Below, one piece after another: positions 11,125 through 63,159 of a stretch of 64,000 bases of DNA; the first letter of the stretch is position 1, and the number at the start of each line of letters is the position of its first letter. Source of the DNA: a virus. Taxonomy: Duplodnaviria; Heunggongvirae; Uroviricota; Caudoviricetes. A model generated the notes under the pieces. It made no database searches and was not told the origin of the DNA. It saw only the letters and a list, made by a program, of their open reading frames with translations. The DNA lies in IMG/VR virus record IMGVR_UViG_2875713109_000001; one strand, given 5' to 3'. Both the position numbers and the translations under genes were made by a program.

Positions 11125-11133
11125 TGTATTCCC

Positions 11134-16930: not shown

Positions 16931-17038
16931 CTCCTTATCATTTCGTATGAGTGAATTGTACGTTTGATTCTGCTACGTGCAACTTATTTTGATTTGTGCG
17001 TAAATTATTGCACGTAAAAAATGGCGATGAGGCTATTA

Positions 17039-24975: not shown

Positions 24976-24977
24976 AT

Positions 24978-25053
24978 GCCGGTTTAGCTCAGTTGGTAGA
25001 GCGCCTGCCTTGTAAGCAGGATGTCAGCGGTTCGAGTCCGTTAATCGGCACCA
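24978..25053 (+). tRNA. tRNA-Thr (anticodon UGU)
   Basis: Acceptor gccggtt/aatcggc, D-arm gctcagttggtagagc, anticodon stem cctgc/gcagg loop ctTGTaa, T-loop ttcgagt, CCA encoded. Confidence 0.85.
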
Positions 25054-25785
25054 GCACAACAGGTAAGGGTATTTTGCGACGCCGGAGATCGCCGAGCTTG
25101 GCAGAGGGTTCGAATCCCTACGAAGTACCCTTACCGTTGTGATGAAGTGCAGCTCTTTGAAGCAACCAGAAGATAAGCATCTGGCTTCACAACATAAACC
25201 GCAGGAACGACCAATAAACGGTAGTCCGTATGGAGAACACCCCGTTGAGGAAGAGGCCTGGCCGGAACCGTAACCGGCACTACAACGTTGAGAACACTGG
25301 CGTAACGGGGTCATATCCCAATCTACGAATAAATGTTGCGTTGCAGCGTGACAACCAGTGTTCTCAACATTGTGGTGAATGCACAGGCTGATGTGCCGCA
25401 ACTACAGTAGTGCGCGCTTTGCGGGGCTTGCTACAACCCTGTGTCGGAGTTCAGCACCGACCATCACAGTTTGATTCTCTGGCATGAGCATAACGCTGAA
25501 ATAAGTCCAGTCTGGTGCGGCCCGATCACCCGCCGTTAGCTCCACGAAACGGAGCACGTAACAGGTAAGAGCATTCTCCTGTAACGGGTTCATATCCCAA
25601 TCTACAGGTCCACCAAGAATGCTCTTTCCGTTGCGGTGAATGCGGCTAAGCGCACGCGGGGAAATGGTTATATCAGTCCATTCATTTCTCCTTGTTTCCC
25701 CGTCCACGGTGGATAACCAGCCAAAGGACACCGGGAGGCACCCGGCACCGCAGCTTTTTTATTCGTTAAATAATGGAGTGAGAGG

Positions 25786-26022
25786 ATGCAGAACAATCCG
25801 AACAAATGTCGAACGCTATGGGTGCGGTTATATATTTATGCCGTCCTCTGTTTGATTGTGTCACTGGTTCTGTATGTTTGGCTTTTGCCAAATATGATCT
25901 CATCTAACAGCACAATACTTGTATTGTTGGGAGTCCTTCTCGCGCTCATTTACCCGGCTTTCGCAGTAGTCTTTTTTCGTGAAAAAACCAGGAAATTAAT
26001 TAATGAAAAAAACGTTGATTAG
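25786..26022 (+). CDS. small membrane protein (78 aa)
   Basis: Two hydrophobic segments; overlaps start of downstream lipoprotein gene. Confidence 0.45.
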   Translation: MQNNPNKCRTLWVRLYIYAVLCLIVSLVLYVWLLPNMISSNSTILVLLGVLLALIYPAFAVVFFREKTRKLINEKNVD

Positions 26023-26830
26023 TGCAGCGATTATTTTGGGTTCTTTATGTCTGACCGGATGCGATCGGGTAGAGCCAGGTAACGTAGGGATCAAAGTAAA
26101 TAAGCTGGGGGATGATAAAGGTATCGGTGAAGTAGTTGGCGTTGGTCGCTACTGGACAGGCTTGAATACTGAAGTTTATATCTTCCCGACCTTTAAGCAA
26201 ATGAAGACATACGATGAGCCGTTCAGCTTCCAGATGAGCGACGGAACAACCATTGGTTACCACATCGGCGTAGCCTACAAGGTTGATCCAGCAAAAGTCA
26301 CAACGGTATTTCAGACCTATCGCAAAGGTGTAGATGATATTACTGATACCGATCTACGCCAGAAGGTTGCAGATGCTCTGAACCGGTTAGCCAGCAAAAT
26401 GACCACCGACAAATTTATCGACGGTGGCAAATCTGAATTGCTTGATGCAGCCCTTAAAGACATTCAGGAAGAAATGACGCCAATCGGCATTCAGGTGATG
26501 AGCCTCTCTTATGTAGGTAAGCCAGAATACCCGCCAACAGTTATTGACAGTATTAACGCCAAAGTCACGGCAAACCAAAAAACCCTGCAACGCGAGCAAG
26601 AGGTCAAACAACGTGAAGCAGAGGCCAACATGCTGCGCGCGGAAGCTGCCGGACAGGCTGATGCTATTCGCACAAAAGCCCAGGCCGAAGCTGATGCCAT
26701 TCGTTTACGTGGTGAAGCTCTGCGCCAGAACCCCGGTGTTATGGAGTTGGAAGCGATCAACAAATGGAACGGTACATTACCGCAGTATATGACCAGTAAT
26801 ACCGCTGTTCCGTTTGTTCCGGTGAAATAA
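26003..26830 (+). CDS. lipoprotein with SPFH/band-7-like domain and coiled-coil C-terminus
   Basis: Signal plus lipobox LTGC; central domain then EAEANMLRAEAAGQADAIRTKAQAEADAIR helical repeats typical of SPFH family. Confidence 0.5.
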   Translation: MKKTLISAAIILGSLCLTGCDRVEPGNVGIKVNKLGDDKGIGEVVGVGRYWTGLNTEVYIFPTFKQMKTYDEPFSFQMSDGTTIGYHIGVAYKVDPAKVTTVFQTYRKGVDDITDTDLRQKVADALNRLASKMTTDKFIDGGKSELLDAALKDIQEEMTPIGIQVMSLSYVGKPEYPPTVIDSINAKVTANQKTLQREQEVKQREAEANMLRAEAAGQADAIRTKAQAEADAIRLRGEALRQNPGVMELEAINKWNGTLPQYMTSNTAVPFVPVK

Positions 26831-26857
26831 AAGCGTAAGCAAAATTGGCAGTAATCC

Positions 26858-26933
26858 GGCCCTTTAGCTCAGTGGTTAGAGCTGGCGACTCATAATCGCA
26901 CGGTCACCGGTTCAAGTCCGGTAGGGGCCACCA
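26858..26933 (+). tRNA. tRNA with CAU anticodon, Ile2 (ileX)-type
   Basis: Near-identical over most positions to recalled E. coli tRNA-Ile2; acceptor ggccctt/aggggcc, anticodon loop ctCATaa, CCA encoded. Confidence 0.8.
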
Positions 26934-42041: not shown

Positions 42042-42251
42042 ATGGCTATCGCTGCAAGTTACACCATGCATCTCTATTGTGATTGCCTCCAGTGTACAGA
42101 TGGCAAATATAAGTCGCCAGACTTCGGTGAGTATATAGGTACGTCATGGGCTGGCTGTGCAAAAGAGGCGCGCAAGGATGGCTGGCGAATAAGCAAAGAC
42201 AAAACGCGTGCTTTTGCGCCCGGGCATAAAGTTTTGAGGATTAACAAATGA
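42042..42251 (+). CDS. small Cys-rich protein (69 aa)
   Basis: AAAGGAGAG SD; CDCLQC...C pattern. Confidence 0.45.
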   Translation: MAIAASYTMHLYCDCLQCTDGKYKSPDFGEYIGTSWAGCAKEARKDGWRISKDKTRAFAPGHKVLRINK

Positions 42252-42964
42252 CCACTATAACCAAAGAGCGACTGCTGACAATCAAGCAGTGGCGCGAAAC
42301 ATACGGACCTGGTAGCAACGTTGTACTGCCAGCAGAAGAAGCGGAAGAACTGGCACGAATTGCGCTGGCATCGCTGGAAGCAGATCCAGTTGCTTATATT
42401 TTCAAACATCCGGCCGGGAAATTATTCTGGGCTTTAACGGATGAAAGCAATAAAGAGCAAGCGGACGTTATTCCTGTTTATGCTGCCGCGCCTGCGTCGG
42501 TTGTGCCGGATAATGCATCAGAGCCTCTTGCTTATGCTTACAAAGAGCTTACGCCTGAGATTATGCGCAACCATTTAGCTGTATTCGAGCGATATGGAAT
42601 AGCCCCAAACGATAGCTCTACCACAATTCAGGCACTGCGAATCGCGCTGGATGGCATAGAGCGGAGCGACGCCATGCTTCATGGTGCCGAACCTGTAAGC
42701 CAAACTTACAAGTTGAACCAGCTATCGGGCAACTCTCCGGCAACTCCGGATGGTTGGATAAGCTGTAGTGAGCGAATGCCGAATACCAAAACAGCCGTTC
42801 TTGTTGCCGTGGAGTTTGACAGGAAAGGTGACTGGCGAATGAAATGGGCTACTTACATCCCCGGGCATCCTGACGCTAATGATGGGTGGATAATTCCTGG
42901 TGCGTCGTGGAAACCGTCACACTGGATGCCGCTACCAGAACCGCCGCAGGAGGTGAATCAATGA
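42248..42964 (+). CDS. DUF551-like domain protein
   Basis: C-terminal GWISCSERMP...W...HWMPLPEPP resembles DUF551. Confidence 0.45.
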   Translation: MTTITKERLLTIKQWRETYGPGSNVVLPAEEAEELARIALASLEADPVAYIFKHPAGKLFWALTDESNKEQADVIPVYAAAPASVVPDNASEPLAYAYKELTPEIMRNHLAVFERYGIAPNDSSTTIQALRIALDGIERSDAMLHGAEPVSQTYKLNQLSGNSPATPDGWISCSERMPNTKTAVLVAVEFDRKGDWRMKWATYIPGHPDANDGWIIPGASWKPSHWMPLPEPPQEVNQ

Positions 42965-43028
42965 GCTGGCCTGAAGCATTCACCACGGTAGGAATTGTGA
43001 TGGCGGCAGCACTGGGTTTGTATTCAAT

Positions 43029-43280
43029 TTGTCGCTGGTGGTAACGATGGGAAAAATAACTTTTGTAGTCGAATTTGAGGATGGCAAAGAGCCACCTGTT
43101 AGCGCCAATCTTGATGTTGCTGGTGGCAGGCTGGTTTCGGTTCTATTTGGTGATTACCGCGACGACTTCTTTCAGCCTGAAGAAGTTGATGTAGTGCGAG
43201 AAGCATTAAACGAGCTAAGTGTTGATAACGATGATGCTCATGCGGAAATCATCAAAAAAATGGAACTGCTAACTCACTAA
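43029..43280 (+). CDS. hypothetical acidic small protein (83 aa)
   Basis: ORF only. Confidence 0.35.
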   Translation: MSLVVTMGKITFVVEFEDGKEPPVSANLDVAGGRLVSVLFGDYRDDFFQPEEVDVVREALNELSVDNDDAHAEIIKKMELLTH

Positions 43281-43458
43281 ATTATCAATTATGGTGCTAT
43301 CACCTACGACACCGAGAGAAAATTTATAATGTCAAAAGTAAATGTTTTGATTTTTTCAGCAATTGTTGGCTTTGGTTTTACTGCCGGAGTGCAGATTTAT
43401 ATTGCGTGGGAAAAAATCATCAACTACGCATGGAGTTGTTTTATTAAGTGAGGTAAGT

Positions 43459-43752
43459 ATGTGGAGAGGTAATAGTCATGGCAAAAGCCAGATGATACTT
43501 ACCGAATATCAGTTTGACCATAAAACCAATAAATCACGTTCAGTATATTTGCTTCGGCACAATAGCCGCGTAAGGAATACCGTGCTGGAGCAAAATCTGA
43601 CTGTTGAAATGGATAATTACGGGGGCTTCAAGCCAACAATTTCGCTTGATGATTTTCCTCGTGGTTTAAGCGAAAGAGAAGCAATGCTGAAATTAGCAGA
43701 ATGGCTACAAAGATTAAGCATTGCTATTGAAGATAACTGGTCTGAACCTTAA
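43459..43752 (+). CDS. hypothetical protein (97 aa), AT-rich gene
   Basis: GTGAGG SD before ATG 43459; low GC. Confidence 0.4.
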   Translation: MWRGNSHGKSQMILTEYQFDHKTNKSRSVYLLRHNSRVRNTVLEQNLTVEMDNYGGFKPTISLDDFPRGLSEREAMLKLAEWLQRLSIAIEDNWSEP

Positions 43753-43758
43753 ATTTAT

Positions 43759-44133
43759 ATGATGACACTAAAACATTTTCTTGACCGCCCATTATGGGCG
43801 GCAGCCGCAGGCTATGACTTTAATTATATGGATTGCATGTCTTATACCGCCAATGCATACGACCATTCCTTCAGTCTGCTGTTTAATTCTTTAAGAATAT
43901 TGCCGCAAACAGAAGTTGGAGAGCTTCATTTATGGCTATTGGGCTTTATCGCGGCTGGAGTTGGTATTGCTGTATGGCCTTTTATTTTCTGGCTGGTGGC
44001 TGTTGTAGTGTGGTTTAAGTGCAAGACGTACCGGAAAAAGTATTTCTTAGGTGATGGAATGACTGATATTGCCAAAATGAACATTGAAAAATGGACTAAG
44101 GAATGTGAAAAGAAATGGCGCAAAAAGAAATGA
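43759..44133 (+). CDS. membrane protein (124 aa) with basic C-terminus
   Basis: TM LWLLGFIAAGVGIAVWPFIFWLVAVVVW then KKWRKKK. Confidence 0.45.
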   Translation: MMTLKHFLDRPLWAAAAGYDFNYMDCMSYTANAYDHSFSLLFNSLRILPQTEVGELHLWLLGFIAAGVGIAVWPFIFWLVAVVVWFKCKTYRKKYFLGDGMTDIAKMNIEKWTKECEKKWRKKK

Positions 44134-44774
44134 CTACTCTAACGACAGCATACTTACAGCAATTGGTATTTTTTGCAGGCGAGGCTACTTGTCATCCTGA
44201 CGCAAACTATTTATTGGAATTTGAGAGGTTAGCGTCACCCGGTATCGTTCTGGAACTGGCCCAACAGGTGCTGGCCTTAAGACAAAAAGAGCAACATGAA
44301 AGTAATACGTGTAGATTGAACTTTGAGCAGTGGCTGGAACAGCAACGCGGAAAAATCGATGTGGACTGTGGTTGTGTGTCTACTGAAACATTCATGCACT
44401 GGCTGCGGGTAGCTTACGAGGCTGGCAACTATCCGGATATTCCGGATAGTTCGGTGCCAGGGCCAGGAAAGGGCGTCACCGGTGAACGTATCCGCATTAA
44501 GCCGCATGTTTATCGCGAACTGGTTAACCGTCTCCACGATACAGCGATCAAGTGTGCTGGCACCCAGCAATTACGAGAAAGAATTAGCCGTGTTTTGGGC
44601 GACGTTATTAAGCCAGACCATCATAAACAAGCCGAGAAAAGTGGCCTGGAAAGGTGTCACCTTGAGGCGGCATTAAACATTAACCCGGGGCATACGCTTG
44701 GCATTATTGATGCACTATTGGTTCATAAGATGGCCAGGGCTTTATTGCCGCTGGTAGGGGGCAATGACAACTAG
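44115..44774 (+). CDS. hypothetical protein (219 aa)
   Basis: ORF overlapping upstream gene end. Confidence 0.4.
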   Translation: MAQKEMTTLTTAYLQQLVFFAGEATCHPDANYLLEFERLASPGIVLELAQQVLALRQKEQHESNTCRLNFEQWLEQQRGKIDVDCGCVSTETFMHWLRVAYEAGNYPDIPDSSVPGPGKGVTGERIRIKPHVYRELVNRLHDTAIKCAGTQQLRERISRVLGDVIKPDHHKQAEKSGLERCHLEAALNINPGHTLGIIDALLVHKMARALLPLVGGNDN

Positions 44775-47412: not shown

Positions 47413-47865
47413 ATGTTACTTAACTGGCAGGGACGCCACTTCATGGAAATAAATCACTCACGAATTACATCGTATGAGATTGCGGATTACATGATCCGCA
47501 CTAAATCTCTTCTATCAGCGAAAGAACTCGCAGCAATCCTTGAAAAGGAATACCCGCATCTGGATGTCGATAAGCGCGATGTTTATCTGCGCTTAAAGGC
47601 TATCGCTGTGTCTAAGTATTCGTCTGTTTTGATTGATGACAGTACACGCCCACGTAGATTTCAGATCCACTCTCTGAATCCTGAATTCTTTCGCCGCAGC
47701 CGCGCTCCGCGCCGGTTTGATGAAAAACTCCAGAACGAACTCTATATGACGCAGGACGAAAAGGAACGCCGGGAGCACCAGCCTTGGGTAATGGCGCGTC
47801 AACTTTTCAATAAGGTGGCCCGTCAGCACCGTCATTACGGTAATGCCACATCCGCACGTATCTGA
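47413..47865 (+). CDS. lpa: late promoter activator Lpa (tentative)
   Basis: 150-aa ORF immediately upstream of pacA and downstream of a C1 operator, as lpa is in P1; AGGTGA SD. Confidence 0.5.
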   Translation: MLLNWQGRHFMEINHSRITSYEIADYMIRTKSLLSAKELAAILEKEYPHLDVDKRDVYLRLKAIAVSKYSSVLIDDSTRPRRFQIHSLNPEFFRRSRAPRRFDEKLQNELYMTQDEKERREHQPWVMARQLFNKVARQHRHYGNATSARI

Positions 47866-47950
47866 TTGATTGCTTGCCCGTTCCGGGCCTTTTGACATGT
47901 GACTTTCGTTACCCTCGCGTCAAAAAGAGTTTTTACGAAAGGAAGCATAA

Positions 47951-49144
47951 GTGACCTGGGACGATCACAAGAAGAATTTTGCTCGCCTGGCGCGAGATGG
48001 TGGTTACACCATCGCACAGTATGCCGCCGAGTTTAATCTTAACCCTAATACCGCACGTCGTTATCTCCGTGCCTTCAAAGAAGACACCAGGACAGCGGAC
48101 AGCCGCAAGCCAAATAAGCCAGTCAGGAAGCCACTAAAAAGCATGATCATTGATCACTCTAATGATCAACATTCCGGTGATCACATTGCGGCTGAAATAG
48201 CAGAAAAACAAAGGGTTAATGCCATTGTCAGTGTCGCAGTCGAGAATGCGAAGCGCCAAAATAAGCGCATAAATGATCGTTCAGATGATCATGACGTGAT
48301 CACCCGCGCCCACCGGACCTTACGTGATCGCCTGGAACGCGACACCCTGGATGATGATGGTGAACGCTTTGAATTCGAAGCTGGCGATTACCTGATAGAT
48401 AACGTTGAAGCGCGGAAGGCCGCGCGCGCTATGTTGCGTCGGTCCGGGGCCGATGTTCTGGAAACCACTCTTCTTGAAAAGTCTCTTTCTCATCTCCTTA
48501 TGCTGGAGAACGCCAGGGATACGTGTATTCGCCTGGTGCAGGAAATGCGCGATCAGCAAAAAGCCGATGATGAAGGTACTCCGCCTGAATACCGTATCGC
48601 GAGCATGCTAAACAGCTGTTCCGCGCAGATAAGCAGTCTGATCAACACCATTTACAGCATCCGGAATAACTATCGAAAAGAAAGCCGGGAGGCGGAAAAG
48701 CACGCTTTGTCTATGGGGCAAGCTGGCATTGTTAAGCTGGCATACGAACGAAAGCGTGAAAATAACTGGTCAGTGCTGGAAGCAGCTGAATTTATCGAGG
48801 CGCATGGCGGGAAAGTGCCGCCCCTGATGCTGGAGCAAATCAAAGCCGATCTGCGTGCTCCTAAGACCAATACCGATGATGAGGAAAGGCAAACTGCCGT
48901 CGGTGGTCCTTCTCTTGAAGATCTGGACAAAGTTGCGCGAGAACGGGCCGCCAACCGCCGCGCCGATGCCGCATTGTGGATTGAGCAGCGTAGGGAAGAA
49001 ATCGCCGATATCGTTGATACAGGCGGTTATGGAGATGTTGATACTGAAGGTGTATCAAACGACCCATGGCTGGAACAAGACCTGGACGAAGACGAGGAGG
49101 AAGACGAAGAAGTTACCCGCAAGCTATACGGGGATGATGATTAA
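47951..49144 (+). CDS. pacA: PacA terminase small subunit (pac recognition)
   Basis: 397 aa as in P1 PacA; contains the pac hexanucleotide clusters; GTG start with AAAGGAAG SD. Confidence 0.85.
48144..48303. other. pac packaging site
   Basis: Four TGATCA hexamers (48144, 48151, 48163, 48178) and three TGATC(A/G) (48274, 48286, 48298) about 100 bp apart, the 4+3 Dam-site layout of P1 pac. Confidence 0.8.
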
Positions 49145-50628
49145 TGGCCAGAAGTTGCGTAACGGATCCACGTTGGCGCGAGCTGGTGGCGCTATATCGT
49201 TATGACTGGATTGCGGCCGCTGATGTTTTGTTCGGCAAAACACCTACCTGGCAGCAGGATCTGATTATTGAGTCTGTGCAGGAACAGGGTAGCAAGACAT
49301 CTGTTTCGTCTGGTCACGGTACCGGGAAATCAGACATGACTTCTATCATGATCATGTTGTTCATAATCATGTATCCCGGTGCCCGAGCCATTATCGTTGC
49401 GAACAAAATTCAGCAGGTAATGACCGGTATATTCAAGTACATCAAGATAAACTGGGCTACTGCCACCAGCCGTTTTCCATGGCTTGCTGATTATTTTGTT
49501 CTGACAGAAACCGCTTTCTATGAGGTTACTGGTAAAGGTGTATGGACTGTAGTACCGAAGGGCTTTCGTCTGGGAAGTGAAGAAGCTCTCGCCGGTGAAC
49601 ACGCAGATCATCTTCTGTATATTATCGATGAAGCCTCCGGTGTCAGTGATAGAGCTTTCGGTATCATCACCGGTGCTCTTACCGGACAGGATAACCGCAT
49701 CTTATTGCTGTCACAGCCTACACGCCCAAGCGGCTATTTCTACGATACACACCATAAACTGGCCAAGCGTCCTGGTAACCCTGATGGCGTTTATACGGCG
49801 ATCACGCTTAACAGTGAGGAATCACCGCTGGTAACGCCAGCATTTATCAAAATGAAGCTGGCGGAGTACGGCGGGCGTGATAACCCTATGTACATGATTA
49901 AGGTACGCGGGCTATTCCCTAAATCACAGGATGGCTTCCTTCTTGGACGTGATGAGGTTGAACGTGCAACGCGGCGGAAAGTCAAGATTGCCAAAGGATG
50001 GGGCTGGCTTGCATGTGTGGACGTTGCTGGTGGTACGGGAAGGGATAAGTCCGTTATCAATATCATGATGGTGTCCGGCCAGAGAAATAAACGCCGTGTA
50101 ATCAACTATCGAATGCTGGAATACACAGACGTTACAGAAACGCAGCTTGCCGCCAAAATTTTCGCAGAATGTAATCCTGAGCGATTCCCAAATATCACCA
50201 TAGCGATAGACGGCGATGGTCTGGGTAAAGCAACGGCGGATCTGATGTACGAGTATTATGGTATTACCGTACAGCGTATACGCTGGGGTAAAAAGATGCA
50301 TAGCCGTGAAGATAAGAGCCTGTACTTTGATAAACGTGCTTATGCCAACGTTCAAGCCGCAGAGGCCGTAAAATCTGGTCGTATGAGACTGGATAAGGGT
50401 AATGAAACTATTGAGGAAGCGTCGAAAATCCCTGTAGGGATTAACTCCGCAGGTCAATGGAAGGTGATGAGTAAGGAAGATATGAAGAAAAAACTCAACC
50501 TGCACTCACCGGACCATTGGGATACATATTGTTTCGCTATGTTGGCGAACTATGTTCCCCAAGATGAAGTGCTTAGCGTCGAAGACGAAGCGCAGGTTGA
50601 TGAAGCTCTGGCATGGCTTAATGAGTAA
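49144..50628 (+). CDS. pacB: PacB terminase large subunit
   Basis: 494 aa, ATG overlapping pacA stop; Walker A-like [10 protein letters not shown]. Confidence 0.85.
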
Positions 50629-50631
50629 AAA

Positions 50632-50648
50632 CTTGCTCTAATAAATTG
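50632..50648 (+). promoter_or_regulatory. C1 operator-like site upstream of second immI-like module
   Basis: cttgctctaataaattg. Confidence 0.6.
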
Positions 50649-50851
50649 TGTTTTTTGACTGCCGATGTTACATTGAACCTGACCTCTTGCGCCTTGAGGC
50701 ATTTTCGGTTTATGCTTATCAGGCACCTCATTAAAACGGGTGCCGGGATTGGAACCCCGGATAATGCAAAAGGCGACACAGACGCCAAAAGCGTCTTTTT
50801 TTGTGTCATGCCATCGCACAGCCATACGTAGCACATAGCTCCGAGATCAAT

Positions 50852-50926
50852 GGTAGTGCTGGCTGGGCTGCCGAAAGGCAGGCCGGTTCCCTTTTGCGCC
50901 GGTAGTTCCAACCCAGTCAGTGCTAC
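50852..50926 (+). ncRNA. second c4-like structured RNA (tentative)
   Basis: About 75 nt closed by ggtag/ctacc with GAAA-loop hairpin ctgcc-gaaa-ggcag; same position relative to the icd-like gene as 4067-4143. Confidence 0.3.
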
Positions 50927-50987
50927 CGCCATTGAGATTGGAACCTCACGCGGTAGCTCCTTAAGTTAGCAAAAGGAGGCTGCCATT

Positions 50988-51209
50988 GTGGCTACTATCC
51001 CTACCCCTGCTCATCCTGAATTTATCTGGCGCTTTTACTCCTGCCAAAAACGTCACTATCACTTCGTTATTGCACCGACAGAAGATGAGGCACGTTCTCA
51101 GCTTCCTGACGCCCCATGTATTTTCTCTGCCCGTTTTTCCACTGATTCACGCAATTCTCTCAGTTACTGGTGCCTCCCTGTTAACGCTTCTGCTCTGGAG
51201 GGGCTATGA
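50988..51209 (+). CDS. Icd-like small protein, second copy
   Basis: 73 aa, about 70% identical to 4194-4415 product; GTG start 8 nt after AAAAGGAGG. Confidence 0.6.
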   Translation: MATIPTPAHPEFIWRFYSCQKRHYHFVIAPTEDEARSQLPDAPCIFSARFSTDSRNSLSYWCLPVNASALEGL

Positions 51210-52321
51210 GAACATCATTAGTCACCCGTAAAGAAATGATCGAGGCAATTGAACAGCACACTGCCTGTATCAGTACCAGGGATATACCTGGCGTTATTGC
51301 CAACTACTTCATGATCACCAAACAACTTTACCGGAGAAAGGACAAAAACGCGGTTCACCGCATTCTGCTAACCGATATCCGTGAATACCTGCTCGAACAG
51401 GGTCATCTGAATTACGCAACCGTCGCAGCCGAAGCACGCAAGGAGGCACACAGAATGAAAGCAACTAACGTTAAATCAGAAAAAACTCATGCACCTTCAG
51501 TTCAGGAATCGGAGCTGGTGGTTGTTCAGAATCAGTCTGATGAAATTCCCGTTCTGGAATGGCTGGGAGTGCGTGTAGTGACAACTAAGATCCTTGCTAA
51601 GGGGTATGGGACAGATGCGGATAACATCAAGAAGAACTTTTCCCGTAATGCTGAACGTTTTTGTGAAGGCAAGCATTTCTATAAAGTTATTGGAGATGAT
51701 TTGAACAATTTGCGGGTGACTTTAAGTAACTCACAAAATCCTATCTCTCCTAAAGCCCGCTCACTCATCCTCTGGACGGAACGCGGCGCAGCCCGCCACG
51801 CTAAAATGATCGAAACCGATCAGGCATGGGCATTCTTTGAAAAACTGGAAGACAGCTACTTCCGACAAAAAGAACAGCAACCGATCGCAATCCCCCAGAC
51901 GCTTCCAGAAGCTCTGCGCCTTGCTGCCGAACTGGCTGAACAAAAGCAACTTCTGGAACAGAAAGCCCATCAGCTAAATCAGCAGCTGGTGGCCGCAGCC
52001 CCCAAAGTCGATTTTGCCGACCGGGTATCAGTGGCTAAGGGGATCCTGATTGGGAATTTTGCAAAGGTCGTTGGACTTAAACAAAATGCGCTGTTTGCCT
52101 GGTTACGGGAGAACGGCATTCTGATAGCGTCCGGCGGCCGTAAAAATGTACCGTTCCAGCAGTACATAAACGCCGGATATTTCACAGTGAAAGAAGTGGT
52201 GCTGGATGATGAAGAGGGCTACCAGATACGGCTGACGCCCCAATTAACGGGGAAAGGCCAACAGTGGTTGACGCGTAAACTGCTCGATGCTGGCTTGTTA
52301 AAACCGGTGGCGGCTGAATAA
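51206..52321 (+). CDS. antirepressor-like protein, second copy (ORF6N-like middle domain, KilA-C C-terminus)
   Basis: 371 aa; N- and C-terminal regions homologous to Ant, different central domain; ATG overlaps icd-like stop. Confidence 0.7.
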   Translation: MRTSLVTRKEMIEAIEQHTACISTRDIPGVIANYFMITKQLYRRKDKNAVHRILLTDIREYLLEQGHLNYATVAAEARKEAHRMKATNVKSEKTHAPSVQESELVVVQNQSDEIPVLEWLGVRVVTTKILAKGYGTDADNIKKNFSRNAERFCEGKHFYKVIGDDLNNLRVTLSNSQNPISPKARSLILWTERGAARHAKMIETDQAWAFFEKLEDSYFRQKEQQPIAIPQTLPEALRLAAELAEQKQLLEQKAHQLNQQLVAAAPKVDFADRVSVAKGILIGNFAKVVGLKQNALFAWLRENGILIASGGRKNVPFQQYINAGYFTVKEVVLDDEEGYQIRLTPQLTGKGQQWLTRKLLDAGLLKPVAAE

Positions 52322-52328
52322 TGGAAGA

Positions 52329-52350
52329 ATGCCCGGTTGATGCCGGGCAT
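52329..52350. terminator. bidirectional terminator-like hairpin between convergent ant-like and c1
   Basis: atgcccgg-ttgatg-ccgggcat. Confidence 0.45.
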
Positions 52351-52353
52351 AAT

Positions 52354-53205
52354 TTATTGCGCGCTTTCGGGGTTGTCGTTTACTGGCTGCCCCTTCTTGG
52401 TTTTACGGCTGCGCGTAACTGATGCGGCTGACTTAACCTTTTTCTCTTCGCGAGTGATGGCAATTTGTTTTTTTACATTTTCAATATCTGCCAGGCGATA
52501 TATTTTTGCTTGTGGCCAGCGGTCGCAGATGATCGGTTCTATGGAGTCATAAAGGCTAAATTTTGCTTTTTCGAATTCACCGTTGATGATGATTCCATCA
52601 CGGAGAGTTTCATCGCAGATAAACACGCCACACAGCGGTACATGGTAACTAACTGATTTACCATCATTGTAGTTAGGGCTACTGGAGATGTAGTGGACGC
52701 GCAGCATTGTTTCGCTAAAGCCGTGTACACGCATACGGAATTTTTCATCCTCCGGGTACTGCCTCATTAGCTCTTTTGTTGCTTCCAGGTTCTCTATGTA
52801 TTTCGCACTGTGCTCATTGATCCCCGCGCTTTTTTGGATGCGAATGTCCTTATCAATCAGATGAATAATGCGGCCAGCGGTCATGTTGACGCTGTTCACA
52901 GCTTCTGTCTGATAAGTTGTAACCTTGCGCACACCGCGAAGGATGTTAGGCACTGGATATAAAATAGTCTTTGGGATATTGAGGTCTGGGTACTGTTCCA
53001 GTTCCCGCGCCATTAAAGTCCATTTATCAATTTCAGCCTGAATGCTGTCAGTTTCTTTGAACGGTAGAACGACAACCGGGCGTACAGGACGACCGTCGCT
53101 GGCTGTATCAACGTGTTGGGCGCGTGCAACAGCTTTTTTTAGAAAGAGATCCCTGAAGCTGACGAACTCCTGGTACAGTTGTTCGCCGTAGACATAATTT
53201 ATCAT
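52354..53205 (-). CDS. c1: C1 master repressor
   Basis: 283 aa as in P1 C1; GGAGGAGG SD; genome carries many copies of its operator motif. Confidence 0.9.
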   Translation of the reverse strand: MINYVYGEQLYQEFVSFRDLFLKKAVARAQHVDTASDGRPVRPVVVLPFKETDSIQAEIDKWTLMARELEQYPDLNIPKTILYPVPNILRGVRKVTTYQTEAVNSVNMTAGRIIHLIDKDIRIQKSAGINEHSAKYIENLEATKELMRQYPEDEKFRMRVHGFSETMLRVHYISSSPNYNDGKSVSYHVPLCGVFICDETLRDGIIINGEFEKAKFSLYDSIEPIICDRWPQAKIYRLADIENVKKQIAITREEKKVKSAASVTRSRKTKKGQPVNDNPESAQ

Positions 53206-56560: not shown

Positions 56561-56749
56561 TAAATATATTATTTTTAATCTTAAATGATTGACAACTGAC
56601 AAGTGACTTGAGTCAGAATCATCACACGCCCGGTACGGATGGATCCCTTTTCAAATATTCCATGGACGGCACAGTCTGAGTACCGGGCGCTACCTTCTGT
56701 TGTATTGCTAAGCCGCCGCTGGTGGCTTTTCTTTTTTGTAGGGGGCGCT

Positions 56750-57391
56750 ATGGATAAGAAAATATGCGTTGTTTCAATGAGCGTCGGCAAACCGGCGTCA
56801 ATGACTGCTGCATGGATCAACAATGAGCTGATAATGGCTGAGCGGACCAGCTACCCTGAACGCCGCCGCGATATGGAACTCCAGCTGCTGCGCGAATTGC
56901 GAGAAAAAGAGGAAAAGGGTTTTATCGTGCTGGTGGAAGAGGAAAACAGCTTTATTACCGGTCGAGTTGGCCAGCGTGTAAGGTTGCGTGATCCCTTCAT
57001 GAACGGTAGACCGGTACTGATTGAAGCAATGCAGATTTACAAGGAATTGGAACGCCAGAAAGCGATCAAGTTACCGCGCAAGGAATCCGGCAAATACATC
57101 CTCCACCAAAGCATCTTCGATTCCGAACATGACAAAAAAGGCGATGAATTTTTCAACATCAACTGGAGCGAAATAACGACAGAGCACGTTCTGACGTTGT
57201 TATGCTGCTTCGCAACGGAATACAACAACGTTGCAAACTCCGACTACATCAGGGCAATGGCTGGAGAAGTTGAGCCACGCCAGGAACCATCGTTACTAAG
57301 CCCACTGATTAACATAATTCGCGGCACACAGAGACTTGCGGAAAAAAGCGTTCCACATGGAATCTTAACTGGAAAGGGAAACTATTTTTAA
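56750..57391 (+). CDS. mat: Mat-like protein (tentative)
   Basis: ORF between ref and res as P1 mat; ATG 56750 preferred over upstream track start. Confidence 0.5.
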   Translation: MDKKICVVSMSVGKPASMTAAWINNELIMAERTSYPERRRDMELQLLRELREKEEKGFIVLVEEENSFITGRVGQRVRLRDPFMNGRPVLIEAMQIYKELERQKAIKLPRKESGKYILHQSIFDSEHDKKGDEFFNINWSEITTEHVLTLLCCFATEYNNVANSDYIRAMAGEVEPRQEPSLLSPLINIIRGTQRLAEKSVPHGILTGKGNYF

Positions 57392-57432
57392 CGACCTGAG
57401 CGCCACTTCTTTCAGGTCGTGTTGGATGTCAT

Positions 57433-57457
57433 AAAAAGGAGGTTTTCACCTCCTTTT
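57433..57457. terminator. bidirectional terminator between mat and res
   Basis: aaaaaggagg-ttttca-cctcctttt. Confidence 0.55.
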
Positions 57458-57466
57458 AAACTGGAA

Positions 57467-60379
57467 TTATGGTAATGCGCTCTTGATTAACTGATAAATA
57501 TCATCATTAGCAAACTGCGTTTTGAATTCAACTTTAACAGACTGACTTATTTGATTGAAAAGCGCCTGGGCATGTTCAATTTTCTTTTTTTCTTCAAGCC
57601 GTAAACTATCCTTACTATCTACGTTTTTTGTTTCAATGATAAAGTTAAGATAATCACCTTCTGCTGTTTTTACAACATAAGCAAAATCGGGTGAGTAAGT
57701 GTATCCACCAGCTACCGGGATCTTAATAGAATTCTTCGGTATCTTTGAAAAAACAACAACAGACTGGATCTCTCTATCTGTTATATTACGCCTTTCAAGC
57801 TCTGAATCATAAAAAACCTCTTCAAAAAGATAAGTATCTAATGGTGCTTTTGAATTATCCTGTAATACACCAAGATCACTTGATAATACCTCGTCTAGAG
57901 GCTTACCATCAGCATTTGTGAACTTTGTGGGATGAATTGAACCCGAAATCAAATTATATCCGAGGCTGAATTTGTTAAACGAATTGTTCAACAAATACTT
58001 ACTAAAACCAGATTTAATTTTTCTGATTGTTTGAATATTCAGGTATTCAGTGATATTAATAGTGTCTTTTATATCACAAAAAACTTTATGTAAAGTATCG
58101 TGTTTAACAAAAATAGTCTGTGATAAGTTATCGAGAAACTCTCGATAACTCATTGTGTTTAGCTTAGCAAAGTCATCGTCATCACTAACAATGCTTTTCG
58201 ACATTGCCATATCATTGTGGATGTAAATTTTATCAATGCGAGTATGAACGCCTGATTTGGTAAATCGTTCTGTTTCTTCGAGCATGAATGACTTGAAAAT
58301 GGATAAAAACTCATTTTCACTGTTTATTTTGTACTCAATCACCGCTTTTTGATTGATTAATTCCCATAGTTCTTTCAGCTCACTGAACTTACCAACACGC
58401 ATTTTAGTGCGTCTTTTTCCATCAGTAGCTTTTTTGATTTTACCTGGTTTCACTCCTATAGGGAATGCTGCTGGATATTTGGATTTTAAGCGGCTGTAGG
58501 CATCTGAATCTTTGAAATTATCATTTTCATCAATGATTTCATCATTGAAAAGTTCATTCATTAGTGCTCTGGATGAAAGCTCAGGATACTGAGCCCTGAT
58601 TTGTTCCTTAAGCTCTTGAGTAAACTTACTTGGAACCCTTTCTTTGAAAGAACTCTCATTGACCTCTTTAACAAGTGAGTCAACAAAATCCTTTTCTGTA
58701 AAATCGACATAATATTTAAGGGTAAAATTGCGGTCTTTCACTCGACACATGTATTCATTCACAGGAAGACGCAAACCGCGCCCTACCTCTTGAAGCTTGG
58801 ATGTGGTACTACCGCTCGAACGGAGCTTACAGATCTGAAAGACATTAGGATTATCCCATCCCTCACGCAACGTCCATTTGGAGAAAATGAAACGACGTGG
58901 ATTATCTAAAGACAGCAAAAGCTCTTTGTCATGAAGGATTTCGTTGATTTCCTTCTCGATTTTATCATCCTTATCACTGTTATCTTTTGAAAAATAACCG
59001 CCATGAACGGAAGATATATCTTTAACTGTTTTTTCAAGATAGTTACTATAAAACTCATCTTTTTCTATTTTTAACAGTTCATTAGCTTCTGCCAAAACAT
59101 ATTCTTCGAACTTAGCTTTCAAACTTCCGGCAATATTATTACCGTCACGATAACCTTCAATATCATCAATAAAGAAAAGAGTAAGAGGCTTTATGCGTGG
59201 CCTTTGTGTCAGAAACTCTTTTTCTAACTTAAAGTGTTCTTTGATAGCTTTCCTCATCATGCTGTCAGCAAGTGTCTGATCGTAAGAATAGGGGTTTATT
59301 GAGCAACCAATTTTTAGCTCAATACCATTACTCAACACTACTGTATTCTTGCCTAAGGCATCAAGAGTTAAATCGTGAATAGCACTATGTGTCTTAGATA
59401 GAGATTCACCTTTTGTTAACTTAAATAAAGTTTTCTTGTTATTTTCATTTAGCTCAAATGTAACTTCTTCCCCATCAGATTTAATGAACTTTAGGTTGGC
59501 GTCACCATCACCAACAATATCCTCAATGTACGCATCAATACCTTTAACAAGGTCTTCATTAAATGCATCCACAGCTGTAAGTCGATAAACTAAATTCTTA
59601 TAGCCTTCACTAAAGGTCGCACCGTAGCGGATAATATATTGAGCATTAAACTTCTCTATATTTTCCCATGTCTTTTTACCAGTAGGAAATTTATGTGGTT
59701 CATCAATGATAATGAATGGTTTTACCGCACCAAGAGCTGAAAAGGGAGAATCAAAATGATTGTCAAGCAAGCCAACATCATAAGTGGAATTTAAATTCTT
59801 AGAGTGAATCATTCCCGTGTTAATAACAAGAACGTGTATATATTTCTTATTGAAATTACTAGCTTCAACAAAATCATGTATAGCTTGAGGCATATACGAT
59901 TTTGTGCTTTTACCGGCATTTTTCTGACTTTCAACAACGTAAGTCTTTATTTCACGCTCATAATCATCTCTAAAGTGTTCTTTTAACGCATCGCTTTTCA
60001 AAAAGTTCACTGTTCCAGCTTTGATCGATAGAGTAGGAACAATAATGATAAACTTATTAATGCCAAATGATTTGTTCAGATCAAAAATTGTTTTAGTGTA
60101 GGTATACGTTTTACCTGTACCTGTCTCCATAGAAACATCGATTACGTTGCTTCCAGCATCGTAATTATTTTTTACATGTTCAATACCATTGAGTTCCTGA
60201 ACTTTTTTTATATTTTTATAGTATTGCTGTTCAGTAAGCCGTAATTCTGGATTAACTAACAGGCGAATAGAAACATTATCCTCCTGATGAGATGTCGCGG
60301 AAACAAAAACGTTCATCACCGCATCGACACCTGCTTTCTGATGCGGTAAGTTCTTTTCGAATGTGAACCCTTTTGACAT
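57467..60379 (-). CDS. res: type III restriction enzyme Res subunit
   Basis: 970 aa as in EcoP1I Res; helicase motifs METGTGKTYTY (Walker A) and IIIDEPHKF (DEAH-like); AT-rich. Confidence 0.9.
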   Translation of the reverse strand: MSKGFTFEKNLPHQKAGVDAVMNVFVSATSHQEDNVSIRLLVNPELRLTEQQYYKNIKKVQELNGIEHVKNNYDAGSNVIDVSMETGTGKTYTYTKTIFDLNKSFGINKFIIIVPTLSIKAGTVNFLKSDALKEHFRDDYEREIKTYVVESQKNAGKSTKSYMPQAIHDFVEASNFNKKYIHVLVINTGMIHSKNLNSTYDVGLLDNHFDSPFSALGAVKPFIIIDEPHKFPTGKKTWENIEKFNAQYIIRYGATFSEGYKNLVYRLTAVDAFNEDLVKGIDAYIEDIVGDGDANLKFIKSDGEEVTFELNENNKKTLFKLTKGESLSKTHSAIHDLTLDALGKNTVVLSNGIELKIGCSINPYSYDQTLADSMMRKAIKEHFKLEKEFLTQRPRIKPLTLFFIDDIEGYRDGNNIAGSLKAKFEEYVLAEANELLKIEKDEFYSNYLEKTVKDISSVHGGYFSKDNSDKDDKIEKEINEILHDKELLLSLDNPRRFIFSKWTLREGWDNPNVFQICKLRSSGSTTSKLQEVGRGLRLPVNEYMCRVKDRNFTLKYYVDFTEKDFVDSLVKEVNESSFKERVPSKFTQELKEQIRAQYPELSSRALMNELFNDEIIDENDNFKDSDAYSRLKSKYPAAFPIGVKPGKIKKATDGKRRTKMRVGKFSELKELWELINQKAVIEYKINSENEFLSIFKSFMLEETERFTKSGVHTRIDKIYIHNDMAMSKSIVSDDDDFAKLNTMSYREFLDNLSQTIFVKHDTLHKVFCDIKDTINITEYLNIQTIRKIKSGFSKYLLNNSFNKFSLGYNLISGSIHPTKFTNADGKPLDEVLSSDLGVLQDNSKAPLDTYLFEEVFYDSELERRNITDREIQSVVVFSKIPKNSIKIPVAGGYTYSPDFAYVVKTAEGDYLNFIIETKNVDSKDSLRLEEKKKIEHAQALFNQISQSVKVEFKTQFANDDIYQLIKSALP

Positions 60380-60381
60380 GA

Positions 60382-62322
60382 TTAGTTCCTTACCACTAAA
60401 TCTAACTCAATAGATTTTTTGTTAGCATAACTTTTTAGCGCCTCATTAAGCTCCCTTTGTTTTGCACTTTCAAAGTTACAACCATAAAACACGACTTTGT
60501 TTGGGGCAAAATCTTCATCTGAATCCAGCTTTTGGAGCAACGCTTTCAATGCTTCGCTAGTAAAATTAGGTGCAATCAAATACAGACGGCCATTGCAAAA
60601 GTGTGCTGTATAGCCACTAAGATCAACATCTTCAATAGGTGTTGTTAACAAGCTACCATCATATACACACCATGTAGTCAATAGGGCATCATACTGTTCA
60701 GGCGTTAATACCGCATCATCAAAGAATGTATGATTAGTGAGCGTAAGTTCAGACTCAACTTTTGCTCTAAAGTCATCAATAGTATGAATCACTTTGAAAC
60801 CTATTTTAGCCGCATTATCACTTGTGGTTGTGCTTTTTTTAAATACCTCCTGTATCCTTTTTTTTGTTATTTCAAAAATAGATCTATAGCCAAGAGAATA
60901 GGCATTCTTTGTTTTATTTATAACTTCATCTTTTTGTATGCATATAAAATTCCTACAGCCTGAATCTTTTTCATTTAAATATGCAACAGCTTCTGCTGTC
61001 GTACCAGAGCCAGCAAAAAAGTCAAGAACTAATGAATCCTTTTTTGTTCCTATTTTTACAAGATCGGTTATAAGAGGAACAGGTTTTGGTCCTTCAAATA
61101 ATTTTGCACCTAAAAGATTTTTAAGCTCAGTTGTCGCCGTGCTTGTACTATATTCAGGTTTATACCAAATTGATTTTGGCTTTTTAGTTGGTAGCTCTCC
61201 AAGAGCAGGCCGCTGTTTTTTATAGATATTTTTACCATCTTTTATATCTATTACTATTAGATTATAAAACTCATCATTTATTTTTTTCTTTCCCCACGAC
61301 CATGAAAGCTCTTCACCCGTAGGGCTTACTGGGTAAAGTACATAGTCATCTTCGTTAAGAGGTTTATCATCATCTGTTACATAAACCTTATTTTCTGAAT
61401 TGATGAATACCGGAAACCAACCTTTTGGTCTTGATTTTCTAGAAGCATCTTGGCCAGTACGCTTTAATGTATCAGCTCTTTTAAATAGCCCATATTCATC
61501 TTCATCCCACTCTTTTTCAACTTCACTTTCATCAATATCGAATTGCCCCAAACTACAAACATCTTTGTTTTTAGCGTATACATATATATATTCATGCGTA
61601 TCTGAAAAGCCAAAGTTATCATGATTGCCTTTGAGATTCATGATTGTAGGGAGTTTTGCAACAAAATTACCTTGCCCAAATACTTCGTCGCATAATAATC
61701 CCAACTGTTTATCTTCGTTATCGTCTATGGAGATGAATATTACTCCATCCTCTTTTAAAAGTTCACGTGCAATATAAAGACGAGGATAAATGAATGTCAG
61801 CCATGCACTATGACTGCTTGAACCCTTGGTGGTAAATTCAAGTATGCGGTTAGCCTCATCAAGCTCGATACCTGCCAGTTCAGAAAGCTGTTCTGGTGTA
61901 AACTTGCGATCATCGTTATAGACGAATCCATCTTTACCCGTATTGTATGGTGGGTCAATGTAAATCATATTCACCTTTTCAGCATAAGCATTAACCATAT
62001 GCTTCAATACTTCGAGGTTATCCCCTTTGATTAACAGGTTTTGACTGTTCTTGTTCTCTTCTTGTTGGTTATGTGTTTTATCTTCTGCCAACAACGTTTT
62101 CGGTGGTAGATTGGCCAACAAACGGGCATAAGATTTACCCAGCCAGTTTAAACTGTATGATTCTTTAGAGAGTTCAACCTCCGATGCTCTAATAATCTCA
62201 AGCAATTTTTCTTGAATGAAGGCTCCGTTTTTATCAAAACACTGTGGGAAATTAGCTTTCAACACAGCCAGTTGCTTGCTGTTAGCCGTTTCTACTTCGG
62301 AAAAAATCGTTTCTTTTTTCAT
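60382..62322 (-). CDS. mod: type III modification methyltransferase Mod subunit
   Basis: N6-adenine MTase DPPY (IYIDPPYNTGKD) and FxGxG (VLDFFAGSGTTAEA); start at MKKETIF gives 646 aa (track ORF begins 21 nt upstream). Confidence 0.9.
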   Translation of the reverse strand: MKKETIFSEVETANSKQLAVLKANFPQCFDKNGAFIQEKLLEIIRASEVELSKESYSLNWLGKSYARLLANLPPKTLLAEDKTHNQQEENKNSQNLLIKGDNLEVLKHMVNAYAEKVNMIYIDPPYNTGKDGFVYNDDRKFTPEQLSELAGIELDEANRILEFTTKGSSSHSAWLTFIYPRLYIARELLKEDGVIFISIDDNEDKQLGLLCDEVFGQGNFVAKLPTIMNLKGNHDNFGFSDTHEYIYVYAKNKDVCSLGQFDIDESEVEKEWDEDEYGLFKRADTLKRTGQDASRKSRPKGWFPVFINSENKVYVTDDDKPLNEDDYVLYPVSPTGEELSWSWGKKKINDEFYNLIVIDIKDGKNIYKKQRPALGELPTKKPKSIWYKPEYSTSTATTELKNLLGAKLFEGPKPVPLITDLVKIGTKKDSLVLDFFAGSGTTAEAVAYLNEKDSGCRNFICIQKDEVINKTKNAYSLGYRSIFEITKKRIQEVFKKSTTTSDNAAKIGFKVIHTIDDFRAKVESELTLTNHTFFDDAVLTPEQYDALLTTWCVYDGSLLTTPIEDVDLSGYTAHFCNGRLYLIAPNFTSEALKALLQKLDSDEDFAPNKVVFYGCNFESAKQRELNEALKSYANKKSIELDLVVRN

Positions 62323-62473
62323 ATCCATTTTAAACCAGATCATTTAGCAACAAAGCGCCGCCTCCCCAGCCCGTTAGAGCCAGAAGTTGTGGCACTATCA
62401 CTATCTATATGTTTGAAGAATCGTGCTTCTTTGAGCGATGCTCGGTGAGCAAACAGCCATAATTTGGGGAAGT

Positions 62474-62722
62474 TTAATCCGCATTGAGAAGCAATGCATT
62501 ATCTATGATGATCTGCTCCCATTCTTCGAATGCCCGGTCACGGACGCCCTGGGGAACGCTGTTAGTTTTGAAATCGACGACCGTACGCCATTTCCCGTCC
62601 GGACGGTACATGCGCAGAGCTTTACTTCCCCCTTCCCTGCGCACCTCAACGTTATGCTTATCAGCAAACTCTTGTAATGCTCGTAGCGTCCCATGCTTTA
62701 CTGTGTAGTATCGCTTTTTCAA
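62474..62722 (-). CDS. lxc: Lxc/Bof-like C1 corepressor
   Basis: 82-aa ORF directly upstream of mod, matching size and position of P1 lxc. Confidence 0.65.
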   Translation of the reverse strand: MKKRYYTVKHGTLRALQEFADKHNVEVRREGGSKALRMYRPDGKWRTVVDFKTNSVPQGVRDRAFEEWEQIIIDNALLLNAD

Positions 62723-63159
62723 GTTTTCTCTCCAGCCTGTGCCAAGGCTTCAACTTCCAAATCGTAAGACTCAAACTCATAGTCCTGGTCGTCAACTTCT
62801 TCAGGCACTGGCAGTAAATGCCAGGCTGAGTATATCTGACCATTATCAAAACGCTCCTGGCTGTAGAGCGTCGCGGCTATGAGTGTTAGCGCCGGGCGGT
62901 CATAACGGTAAATTTTGCGAACGTCACGGTCAACGAGACGACCGAAATTACCATAACCGCGCTCCAGTAATAATTTTTTAATTTCCGGCCAGTATGGACC
63001 ATAGCTGCGGTACAGGCGGGGATTTTTCAGTAATCGCCCGCGTAGCCCTGACAGGAAGAAATCAACGTATTCGTCTTCTGTCTTTCCTAACAACGCTGTA
63101 CGGAGTACCGCCTCAAGATATGTTTTATTCGGTTTTATTGTATCAGATAGTGTGGCCAT
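62719..63159 (-). CDS. hypothetical protein (146 aa), ulx position
   Basis: ORF overlapping lxc start. Confidence 0.45.
   Translation of the reverse strand: MATLSDTIKPNKTYLEAVLRTALLGKTEDEYVDFFLSGLRGRLLKNPRLYRSYGPYWPEIKKLLLERGYGNFGRLVDRDVRKIYRYDRPALTLIAATLYSQERFDNGQIYSAWHLLPVPEEVDDQDYEFESYDLEVEALAQAGEKT

What the first reader, a model, noticed from the sequence alone, without database searches (positions are those of the whole stretch)
57392..62343. Intact EcoP1I-type type III R-M with no IS element between mat and res
Res (970 aa) and Mod (about 646 aa) are full length with all catalytic motifs. The mat-res gap is only a 75-bp terminator region, whereas reference P1 carries IS1 near here. 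Specificity cannot be read from sequence.
Basis: partly seen in the sequence, partly recalled or inferred. Interest (0 to 1): 0.3.

Follow-up and report, generated by a model that had tools for sequence, protein, structure and literature searches.

The report
Ordinary wild-type EcoP1I restriction-modification cassette
This is the well-known EcoP1I restriction-modification gene pair of phage P1, intact and in its usual place in a P1-like phage or plasmid; the supposed contrast with the reference genome comes from misremembering where the reference carries its insertion sequences.

Summary
The ORFs are real. res is 57467-60379 (-), 970 aa. mod is 60382-62322 (-), 646 aa; the longest ORF runs to 62343. 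The mat-res gap is 75 bp (57392-57466) and holds two strong hairpins.

- The mod DNA and the Mod protein are 100% identical to the characterised M.EcoP1I (X06287). Specificity can therefore be read from the sequence: AGACC.
- Res differs from P1 Res at two residues (R76G, D618E). P7 shares both, and Res is identical in Salmonella plasmid pSA20030575.2.
- The 75-bp gap is byte-identical in reference P1, P7 and phi456. No reference has an IS there.
- Reference P1 (NC_005856) is the laboratory mutant mod749::IS5. Its IS5 sits inside mod, at mod nucleotide 749, which is window base 61574. Its IS1 lies about 19 kb away, between isaA and isaB.
- Of the 48 closest plasmid records, 46 carry the cassette as one uninterrupted piece at 99.7% identity or more; several are 100% identical.

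Verdict: already known, low interest. Unrelated to the finding, the window carries a second isrK-C4-icd-ant immunity module between pacB and c1.

The parts
56639..57391 (+). mat (maturation control), the upstream neighbour that converges on res
   Evidence: 250-aa ORF. It corresponds to P1 mat at 2716-3468 by collinear alignment, window = P1 + 53923.
57392..57466 (.). 75-bp mat-res intergenic region between convergent genes, with two hairpins. Hairpin 1 is 57392-57419. Hairpin 2 is 57434-57457 (AAAAGGAGGT-TTTC-ACCTCCTTTT), flanked by A/T runs, so it looks like a bidirectional intrinsic terminator.
   Evidence: Folds at -25.3 kcal/mol (+ strand) and -27.7 kcal/mol (- strand); 0 of 200 shuffles fold as well. 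The sequence is identical in P1, P7 and phi456. Terminator function is inferred: the consensus scanner did not list it, because the T-run is absorbed into the stem.
57467..60379 (-). res, the EcoP1I restriction subunit (970 aa): an SF2 helicase/ATPase with a C-terminal PD-(D/E)xK nuclease
   Evidence: Pfam ResIII, DEAD and RE_endonuc. NCBIfam equivalog NF012027 scores 1081 bits against a cutoff of 564. PADLOC REase_III. 968/970 identical to P1 Res, with the differences R76G and D618E both shared with P7. 100% identical to Res of pSA20030575.2. Full-length match to EcoP15I Res, PDB 4ZCF_C.
60382..62322 (-). mod, the EcoP1I modification and recognition subunit (646 aa). In-frame ATGs further upstream give 648 aa (the PGAP start) or 653 aa (62343, the longest ORF).
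   Evidence: 646/646 identical to the X06287 mod product, and the DNA is identical to P1. Pfam N6_N4_Mtase and T3RM_EcoP15I_C. PADLOC MTase_III, 839 bits. Against EcoP15I Mod (4ZCF_A), the N-terminal ~205 and C-terminal ~150 residues are nearly identical; the middle segment, which holds the TRD, is divergent or unaligned.
61571..61574 (.). Empty IS5 target site (TTAG). In reference P1 mod749::IS5, IS5 is inserted here, and window base 61574 is nucleotide 749 of mod.
   Evidence: The two alignment pieces to NC_005856 overlap by these 4 bp. The junction sequences and the annotated 4-bp duplication agree.
60481..60875 (-). res promoters inside the 3' part of mod, placed by coordinate transfer from NC_005856: P1res 60481-60509, P2res 60814-60842, P3res 60849-60875
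   Evidence: Taken from the P1 annotation. The DNA here is 100% identical to P1. The consensus scan independently finds the P2res hexamers at 60842..60814. Function was not tested here.
62373..62499 (-). mod promoters, placed by coordinate transfer: P1mod 62373-62401 and P2mod 62471-62499. P2mod overlaps the 3' end of lxc (62474-62722, -).
   Evidence: Taken from the P1 annotation. Window 62301-62557 is identical to P1.

Best explanation
The region is the wild-type EcoP1I type III restriction-modification operon (mod followed by res) of a natural P1-like phage or plasmid prophage. It sits at its canonical position between mat and lxc.

The mechanism below is established for this exact Mod protein and for a Res protein that differs at 2 of 970 residues:
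- A Mod dimer recognises 5'-AGACC-3' and, using SAM, methylates the internal adenine on one strand.
- With Res bound, the complex uses ATP through the SF2 helicase-like motor for long-range communication along the DNA.
- It cuts 25-27 bp from one of two unmethylated, inversely oriented sites.
- This destroys incoming foreign DNA, while the hemimethylated host and prophage DNA stays protected.

The absence of an IS is the normal wild-type state. The IS5 in the reference genome is a laboratory mutation inside mod.
For: Shown here:
- Both ORFs are intact.
- Mod protein and mod DNA are 100% identical to P1 X06287 and to NC_005856 once IS5 is removed. Res is 968/970 identical.
- All helicase, nuclease and methyltransferase motifs are present.
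- Family models score far above their cut-offs. There are full-length matches to the EcoP15I structure 4ZCF.
- The region is collinear with the P1 cre-c8-ref-mat-res-mod-lxc-ulx-darB neighbourhood.
- The annotated res and mod promoter regions are base-identical to P1.
- 46 of the 48 closest plasmid records carry the 5.1-kb stretch as one uninterrupted piece at 99.7% identity or more. 41 E. coli complete-genome records match at 99% or more.

From the literature:
- EcoP1I recognises AGACC and methylates the internal adenine (PMC2962900).
- Cleavage needs two inversely oriented sites, occurs 25-27 bp downstream and depends on ATP (PMC3874151).
- The reference is mod749::IS5, and res-mod is the variable locus RD-1 of P1-like elements (PMC6906374).
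Against: No activity or methylation data exist for this element. Res carries two substitutions relative to laboratory P1, and G76 lies 8-11 residues before the Walker A motif. However, P7 has both substitutions, the same Res sequence occurs in pSA20030575.2, and EcoP15I has K at position 76, so that position is variable. The terminator role of the hairpins is inferred only.
Confidence: 0.97

Rival explanations
1. The ORFs are intact but the system is restriction-deficient, because the Res substitutions R76G and D618E impair the ATPase or nuclease. That would leave a modification-only system.
For: R76G lies close to the Walker A motif, GTGKT at 87-91.
Against: Phage P7 Res has both residues. 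The identical Res protein is encoded by pSA20030575.2, and the cassette DNA is 100% identical in several other independent plasmids. EcoP15I has K at 76 and D at 618, so position 76 is not conserved and D/E at 618 is a conservative change. The laboratory P1 allele looks like the minority variant.
Confidence: 0.02
2. This is an allele with a new or different target-recognition domain and therefore an unknown specificity.
For: TRD-swapped alleles do exist in P1-like plasmids. Records H174-H177 match at about 92% identity over only 80% of the cassette, in two pieces. EcoP15I Mod diverges only in the middle segment.
Against: Mod here is 646/646 identical to M.EcoP1I, and the mod DNA has zero differences from P1.
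Confidence: 0.005
3. The IS-free state is a derived, noteworthy state, for example a precise excision from an IS-bearing ancestor such as reference P1.
For: Insertions into this cassette do occur in nature: IS1 inside res in CP098997.1 and ISVsa5 in CP070907.1. IS5 sits in mod in the reference.
Against: The wild-type P1 sequence X06287 has no IS. The reference strain is a named laboratory mutant (PMC6906374). 46 of the 48 closest plasmids are uninterrupted. The window has a single TTAG at the IS5 target, with no footprint. There are no IS1 or IS5 remnants anywhere in the window.
Confidence: 0.005

Closest known systems
EcoP1I (phage P1 res/mod; GenBank X06287; NC_005856 with IS5 removed)
   Same: Mod is identical in protein and DNA. 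Res is 968/970 identical. The same 75-bp mat-res gap, the same 2-nt mod-res junction, the same promoter regions and the same genomic position between mat and lxc.
   Different: Five nucleotide differences in res, two of them non-synonymous (R76G, D618E). No IS5 in mod, unlike the mod749::IS5 reference strain.
Phage P7 res/mod (NC_050152)
   Same: 99.9% DNA identity. P7 shares the Res residues G76 and E618. The 75-bp gap is identical.
   Different: P7 Mod has I560 where the window and P1 have T. P7 Res has F590 and L593 where the window has L and Q.
EcoP15I (plasmid p15B; PDB 4ZCF)
   Same: The same architecture. Res aligns over its full length with high similarity (2004 bits). The N- and C-terminal parts of Mod are nearly identical.
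   Different: The central segment of Mod (roughly residues 206-500, including the TRD) is divergent or unalignable. EcoP15I recognises CAGCAG, not AGACC (PMC3874151).
res-mod cassettes of natural IncY P1-like plasmids (e.g. pSA20030575.2 NZ_CP030183, NZ_CP075059, CP063718)
   Same: The 5.1-kb cassette is 100% identical in DNA. Res is identical to WP_001697581.1. The neighbours are the same.
   Different: Nothing differs within the cassette. The backbones are mosaic and only about 98% identical elsewhere.

Membership tests
Type III restriction-modification system (EcoP1I/EcoP15I family) | Two adjacent co-oriented genes, with mod immediately upstream of res | tested here: met
   mod is 60382-62322 (-) and res is 57467-60379 (-). 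Two nucleotides separate the mod stop from the res ATG.
Type III restriction-modification system (EcoP1I/EcoP15I family) | Mod is a beta-class N6-adenine methyltransferase: catalytic motif IV (DPPY) lies N-terminal to the SAM-binding motif I (FxGxG), with the TRD between them, plus the type III C-terminal domain | tested here: met
   DPPY at 123 and FAGSG at 436. Pfam N6_N4_Mtase (1e-42) and T3RM_EcoP15I_C (4e-34). PADLOC MTase_III, 839 bits.
Type III restriction-modification system (EcoP1I/EcoP15I family) | Res has SF2 helicase/ATPase motifs and a C-terminal PD-(D/E)xK endonuclease | tested here: met
   GTGKT at 87, DEPH at 226, QEVGRG at 530 and PD898...E916-T-K918. Pfam ResIII and RE_endonuc. 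NCBIfam equivalog NF012027, 1081 bits against a cutoff of 564.
EcoP1I specifically | The Mod sequence, including the TRD, matches the characterised M.EcoP1I | tested here: met
   646/646 identical to the X06287 mod product, and no nucleotide differences from P1 across mod.
EcoP1I specifically | Located in a P1-type genome between mat and lxc (locus RD-1) | tested here: met
   The window is collinear with P1 977-11276 across cre-c8-ref-mat-res-mod-lxc-ulx-darB. RD-1 is defined in PMC6906374.
EcoP1I specifically | [quoted passage not shown] | not testable with these tools
   Inferred from the 100% identity of Mod, together with PMC2962900 and PMC3874151. A methylome is needed to show it.
EcoP1I specifically | ATP-dependent cleavage 25-27 bp from one of two inversely oriented unmethylated sites | not testable with these tools
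   Biochemical property (PMC3874151). Inferred from the near-identity of Res.
Phase-variable type III mod ('phasevarion') | A simple-sequence repeat tract in or before mod that allows frame switching | tested here: not met
   Only three trivial two-copy repeats (scores 30-41) occur in 57300-62800. None is a homopolymer or short-unit tract in the 5' part of mod.

The most novel reading that the evidence does not exclude
The Res allele found here and in P7 and natural plasmids (G76, E618) might differ functionally from the R76/D618 allele of laboratory P1 that was used for essentially all EcoP1I biochemistry. It could, for example, differ in ATPase coupling or in the delayed onset of restriction. 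In that case the textbook enzyme would be a laboratory variant.
Probability: 0.03. Interest if true: 0.12.

Novelty: already known. Interest (0 to 1): 0.03.

Why it matters
It matters little. The result is useful only as annotation: this P1-like element carries a presumably functional EcoP1I system, with AGACC specificity and m6A modification. That predicts its lysogens restrict unmodified incoming DNA, and that SMRT data should show AGm6ACC. The work also corrects a misconception worth flagging for future scans. The RefSeq P1 genome is the mod749::IS5 laboratory mutant, so an intact mod in a P1-like element is the wild-type condition and not a departure from the reference.

Tried and rejected
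- The terminator consensus scan did not list the hairpin in the 75-bp gap. Direct folding shows why: the flanking A and T runs pair and extend the stem, so no free T-tail is counted. I keep 'terminator' as an inference only.
- I looked for avoidance of AGACC in the window. There are 56 sites on both strands against a Markov(k-2) expectation of 59.9. AGACC is the rarest permutation of its base composition, but its sub-words explain this, so there is no specific signal.
- I looked for phase-variation repeats in mod and found none.
- I looked for IS1 or IS5 remnants in the window and found none.
- I tried to read Lobocka et al. 2004 (PMC523184) for the original description of mod749::IS5. It is not held in the library, so I relied on the GenBank annotation and PMC6906374.
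- I tried to find the exact source record. No phage or plasmid record matches the flanking 24 kb at 100%; the best is 97.8-98.6%. The window is a mosaic P1-like element absent from those collections.
- I did not use the large protein and metagenome searches or structure prediction. Identity to a characterised protein with a solved homologue made them unnecessary.

Full report
**What is there.** ORF listing gives mat at 56639-57391 (+, 250 aa) and res at 57467-60379 (-, 970 aa). mod runs from 60382 on the - strand to the first ATG at 62343 (653 aa); counted from the ATG at 62322, the start annotated for P1 mod, it is 646 aa. G+C drops from about 0.45-0.51 in the flanks to 0.33-0.38 across res-mod. 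This fits the literature description of res-mod as a low-G+C, recently acquired module (PMC6906374).

**Protein families.**
- Res matches Pfam ResIII, DEAD and RE_endonuc. Mod matches N6_N4_Mtase and the type III EcoP15I C-terminal domain.
- The NCBIfam equivalog for type III endonucleases scores 1081 bits against a cutoff of 564.
- PADLOC gives REase_III and MTase_III over the full length of each protein.
- Motif positions in Res are GTGKT 87, DEPH 226 and PD898...ETK916-918. In Mod they are DPPY 123 and FAGSG 436. Neither gene has an internal stop.

**Identity.**
- Megablast against phage records shows the 6.9 kb around the locus is 99.5-99.9% identical to P1, P7, phi456 and vB_EcoM-813R1.
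- Mod is 646/646 identical to the mod product of X06287, the original P1 res/mod sequence. The mod DNA has no difference from NC_005856 once IS5 is removed.
- Res differs from P1 Res at two residues, R76G and D618E, arising from five nucleotide differences. P7 shares both residues.
- The Res protein is identical to that of Salmonella plasmid pSA20030575.2.
- Against the solved EcoP15I complex (4ZCF), Res aligns end to end. Mod is nearly identical in its first ~205 and last ~150 residues but divergent or unaligned in the middle, which is where the target-recognition domain lies.
- Because the whole of Mod equals M.EcoP1I, the specificity can be read from the sequence. It is 5'-AGACC-3' with methylation of the internal adenine (PMC2962900; PMC3874151, Table 1).

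**The IS claim.** The 75-bp mat-res spacer (57392-57466) is byte-identical in reference P1, P7 and phi456. No reference has an IS there.

The annotation of NC_005856 shows IS5 at record 7652-8846, inside mod, with a 4-bp target duplication. Transferred to the window, the empty target TTAG is at 61571-61574, and base 61574 is nucleotide 749 of mod. This matches the allele name mod749::IS5. PMC6906374 states that the reference is the 'P1 mod749::IS5 c1.100 mutant'.

The IS1 of P1 lies at record 22626-23393, between isaA and isaB. That is about 19 kb from res and outside the part of the genome covered by this window. The window holds no IS1 or IS5 sequence.

**How common the cassette is.**
- In PLSDB, 129 plasmids match the cassette. 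Of the 48 closest (99.7% identity or more, at least 98% coverage), 46 carry it as one uninterrupted piece from the end of mat to upstream of mod.
- The other two are interrupted, by IS1 inside res (CP098997.1) and by ISVsa5 (CP070907.1).
- Several plasmids are 100% identical over 5.1 kb.
- Among 5,426 complete E. coli genomes, 89 have a match and 41 match at 99% or more.
- Other P1-like phages and plasmids carry different cargo at this locus (records covering only 22-26% of the query). This is the known variable region RD-1 (PMC6906374).

**Regulatory anatomy.**
- The spacer folds into two hairpins, 57392-57419 and 57434-57457. The second has a 10-bp stem flanked by A and T runs on both sides, which is the form of a bidirectional intrinsic terminator between convergent genes. 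No shuffle out of 200 folds as well on either strand. The consensus scanner did not list it, so terminator function is an inference.
- The promoters annotated in P1 (P1-P3res inside mod; P1mod and P2mod upstream) map to 60481-60875 and 62373-62499. They lie in DNA identical to P1.
- No phase-variation repeats are present.

**Mechanism.** For this protein pair the mechanism is established knowledge, not inference from resemblance. A Mod dimer binds AGACC and methylates one strand. The Mod2Res complex uses ATP for long-range communication and cuts 25-27 bp from one of two inversely oriented unmethylated sites (PMC3874151, PMC4005696). What is not shown here is that the system is expressed and active in this particular element. 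That requires a methylome or a restriction assay.

**Verdict.** The observation of intact genes and a 75-bp gap is correct. The reasons given for interest are wrong. The locus is wild-type EcoP1I: already known, ordinary and widespread.

**Context of the window, unrelated to the finding.** The window is collinear with P1 44141-94800 followed by 1-11276, with several replaced segments.

The most notable is a 1.7-kb insertion between pacB and c1 (50629-52354). It carries a second complete immunity-I-type module: an isrK-like RNA, a C4 antisense RNA, an icd-like ORF and an ANT/ORF6N antirepressor. This is in addition to the canonical c4-icd-ant locus near 3940-5500.

Noticed in passing
window 50629-52354: A 1.7-kb insertion, relative to P1, between pacB (49144-50628) and c1 (52354-53205, -). 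It carries a second immunity-I-type module: isrK-like RNA (50723-50801, 62 bits), C4 antisense RNA (50846-50933, 77 bits), an icd-like ORF (50988-51209) and an ANT/ORF6N antirepressor (51206-52321). Nucleotide identity to P1 icd/ant1 is only 71-81%. The canonical c4 locus is also present (c4-a1b1 at 3940-3992, C4 at 4061-4146). Two antirepressor modules with different C4 RNAs in one P1-like genome may be worth a separate look.
   Followed up: partly
window 2489-3864: The P1 sim (superimmunity) region is replaced by two unrelated ORFs: DUF5384 (2517-3056, -) and a weak TraT-like protein (3060-3581, -).
   Followed up: partly
window 14661-17035: The partition genes parB (14757-15722, -) and parA (15719-16930, -) have no blastn match to the P1 par region, although the flanks are 96-97% identical. 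This is a different par allele, possibly the P7 type, since P7 covers 98% of window 1-25000.
   Followed up: partly
window 25761-26848: The P1 tciA-tciC region is replaced by an SPFH/Band 7 protein (26003-26830, +), next to the tRNA genes at 24900-25050 and 26858-26930.
   Followed up: partly
window 40506-44413: A non-P1 segment replaces part of the region downstream of pap (P1 84580-85181, including the 5' part of pmgT). It has lambdoid-type ORFs: Ead/Ea22-like at 41045-41506 and DUF551 at 42248-42964. This probably explains why 539 phage records, including Stx-converting phages, hit window 25001-50000.
   Followed up: partly
window 47422-50628: The lpa-pacA-pacB region is only 89.5% identical to P1, against 96-99% for most of the backbone.
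   Followed up: no
window 57392-62343: All three AGACC sites inside the cassette lie on the - strand (GGTCT at 58732, 59551 and 61427) and none on the + strand, so the cassette contains no inversely oriented pair. Window-wide there are 25 sites on the + strand and 31 on the - strand, with no avoidance beyond that of the sub-words.
   Followed up: partly
L008 (CP098997.1) 2151-2848; CP070907.1 (H129): Natural relatives with an identical cassette that is interrupted: IS1 inside the 3' part of res in CP098997.1, and ISVsa5 in CP070907.1. IS hits on this cassette do occur in the wild, but they are a minority, 2 of the 48 closest plasmids.
   Followed up: partly
plasmid hits H174-H177 (e.g. NZ_CP057246.1, NZ_CP027443.1): These P1-like plasmids match the cassette at about 92% identity over only 80% of its length, in two pieces. 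This is consistent with alleles carrying a different central (TRD) segment of mod.
   Followed up: no
L004 (ON470617.2, phage vB_EcoM-813R1) 2877-7436: In this record, which is 99.8% identical, res and mod are annotated as four fragmented 'hypothetical protein' CDSs. This suggests frameshifts or sequencing errors in that record, not a different gene content.
   Followed up: no
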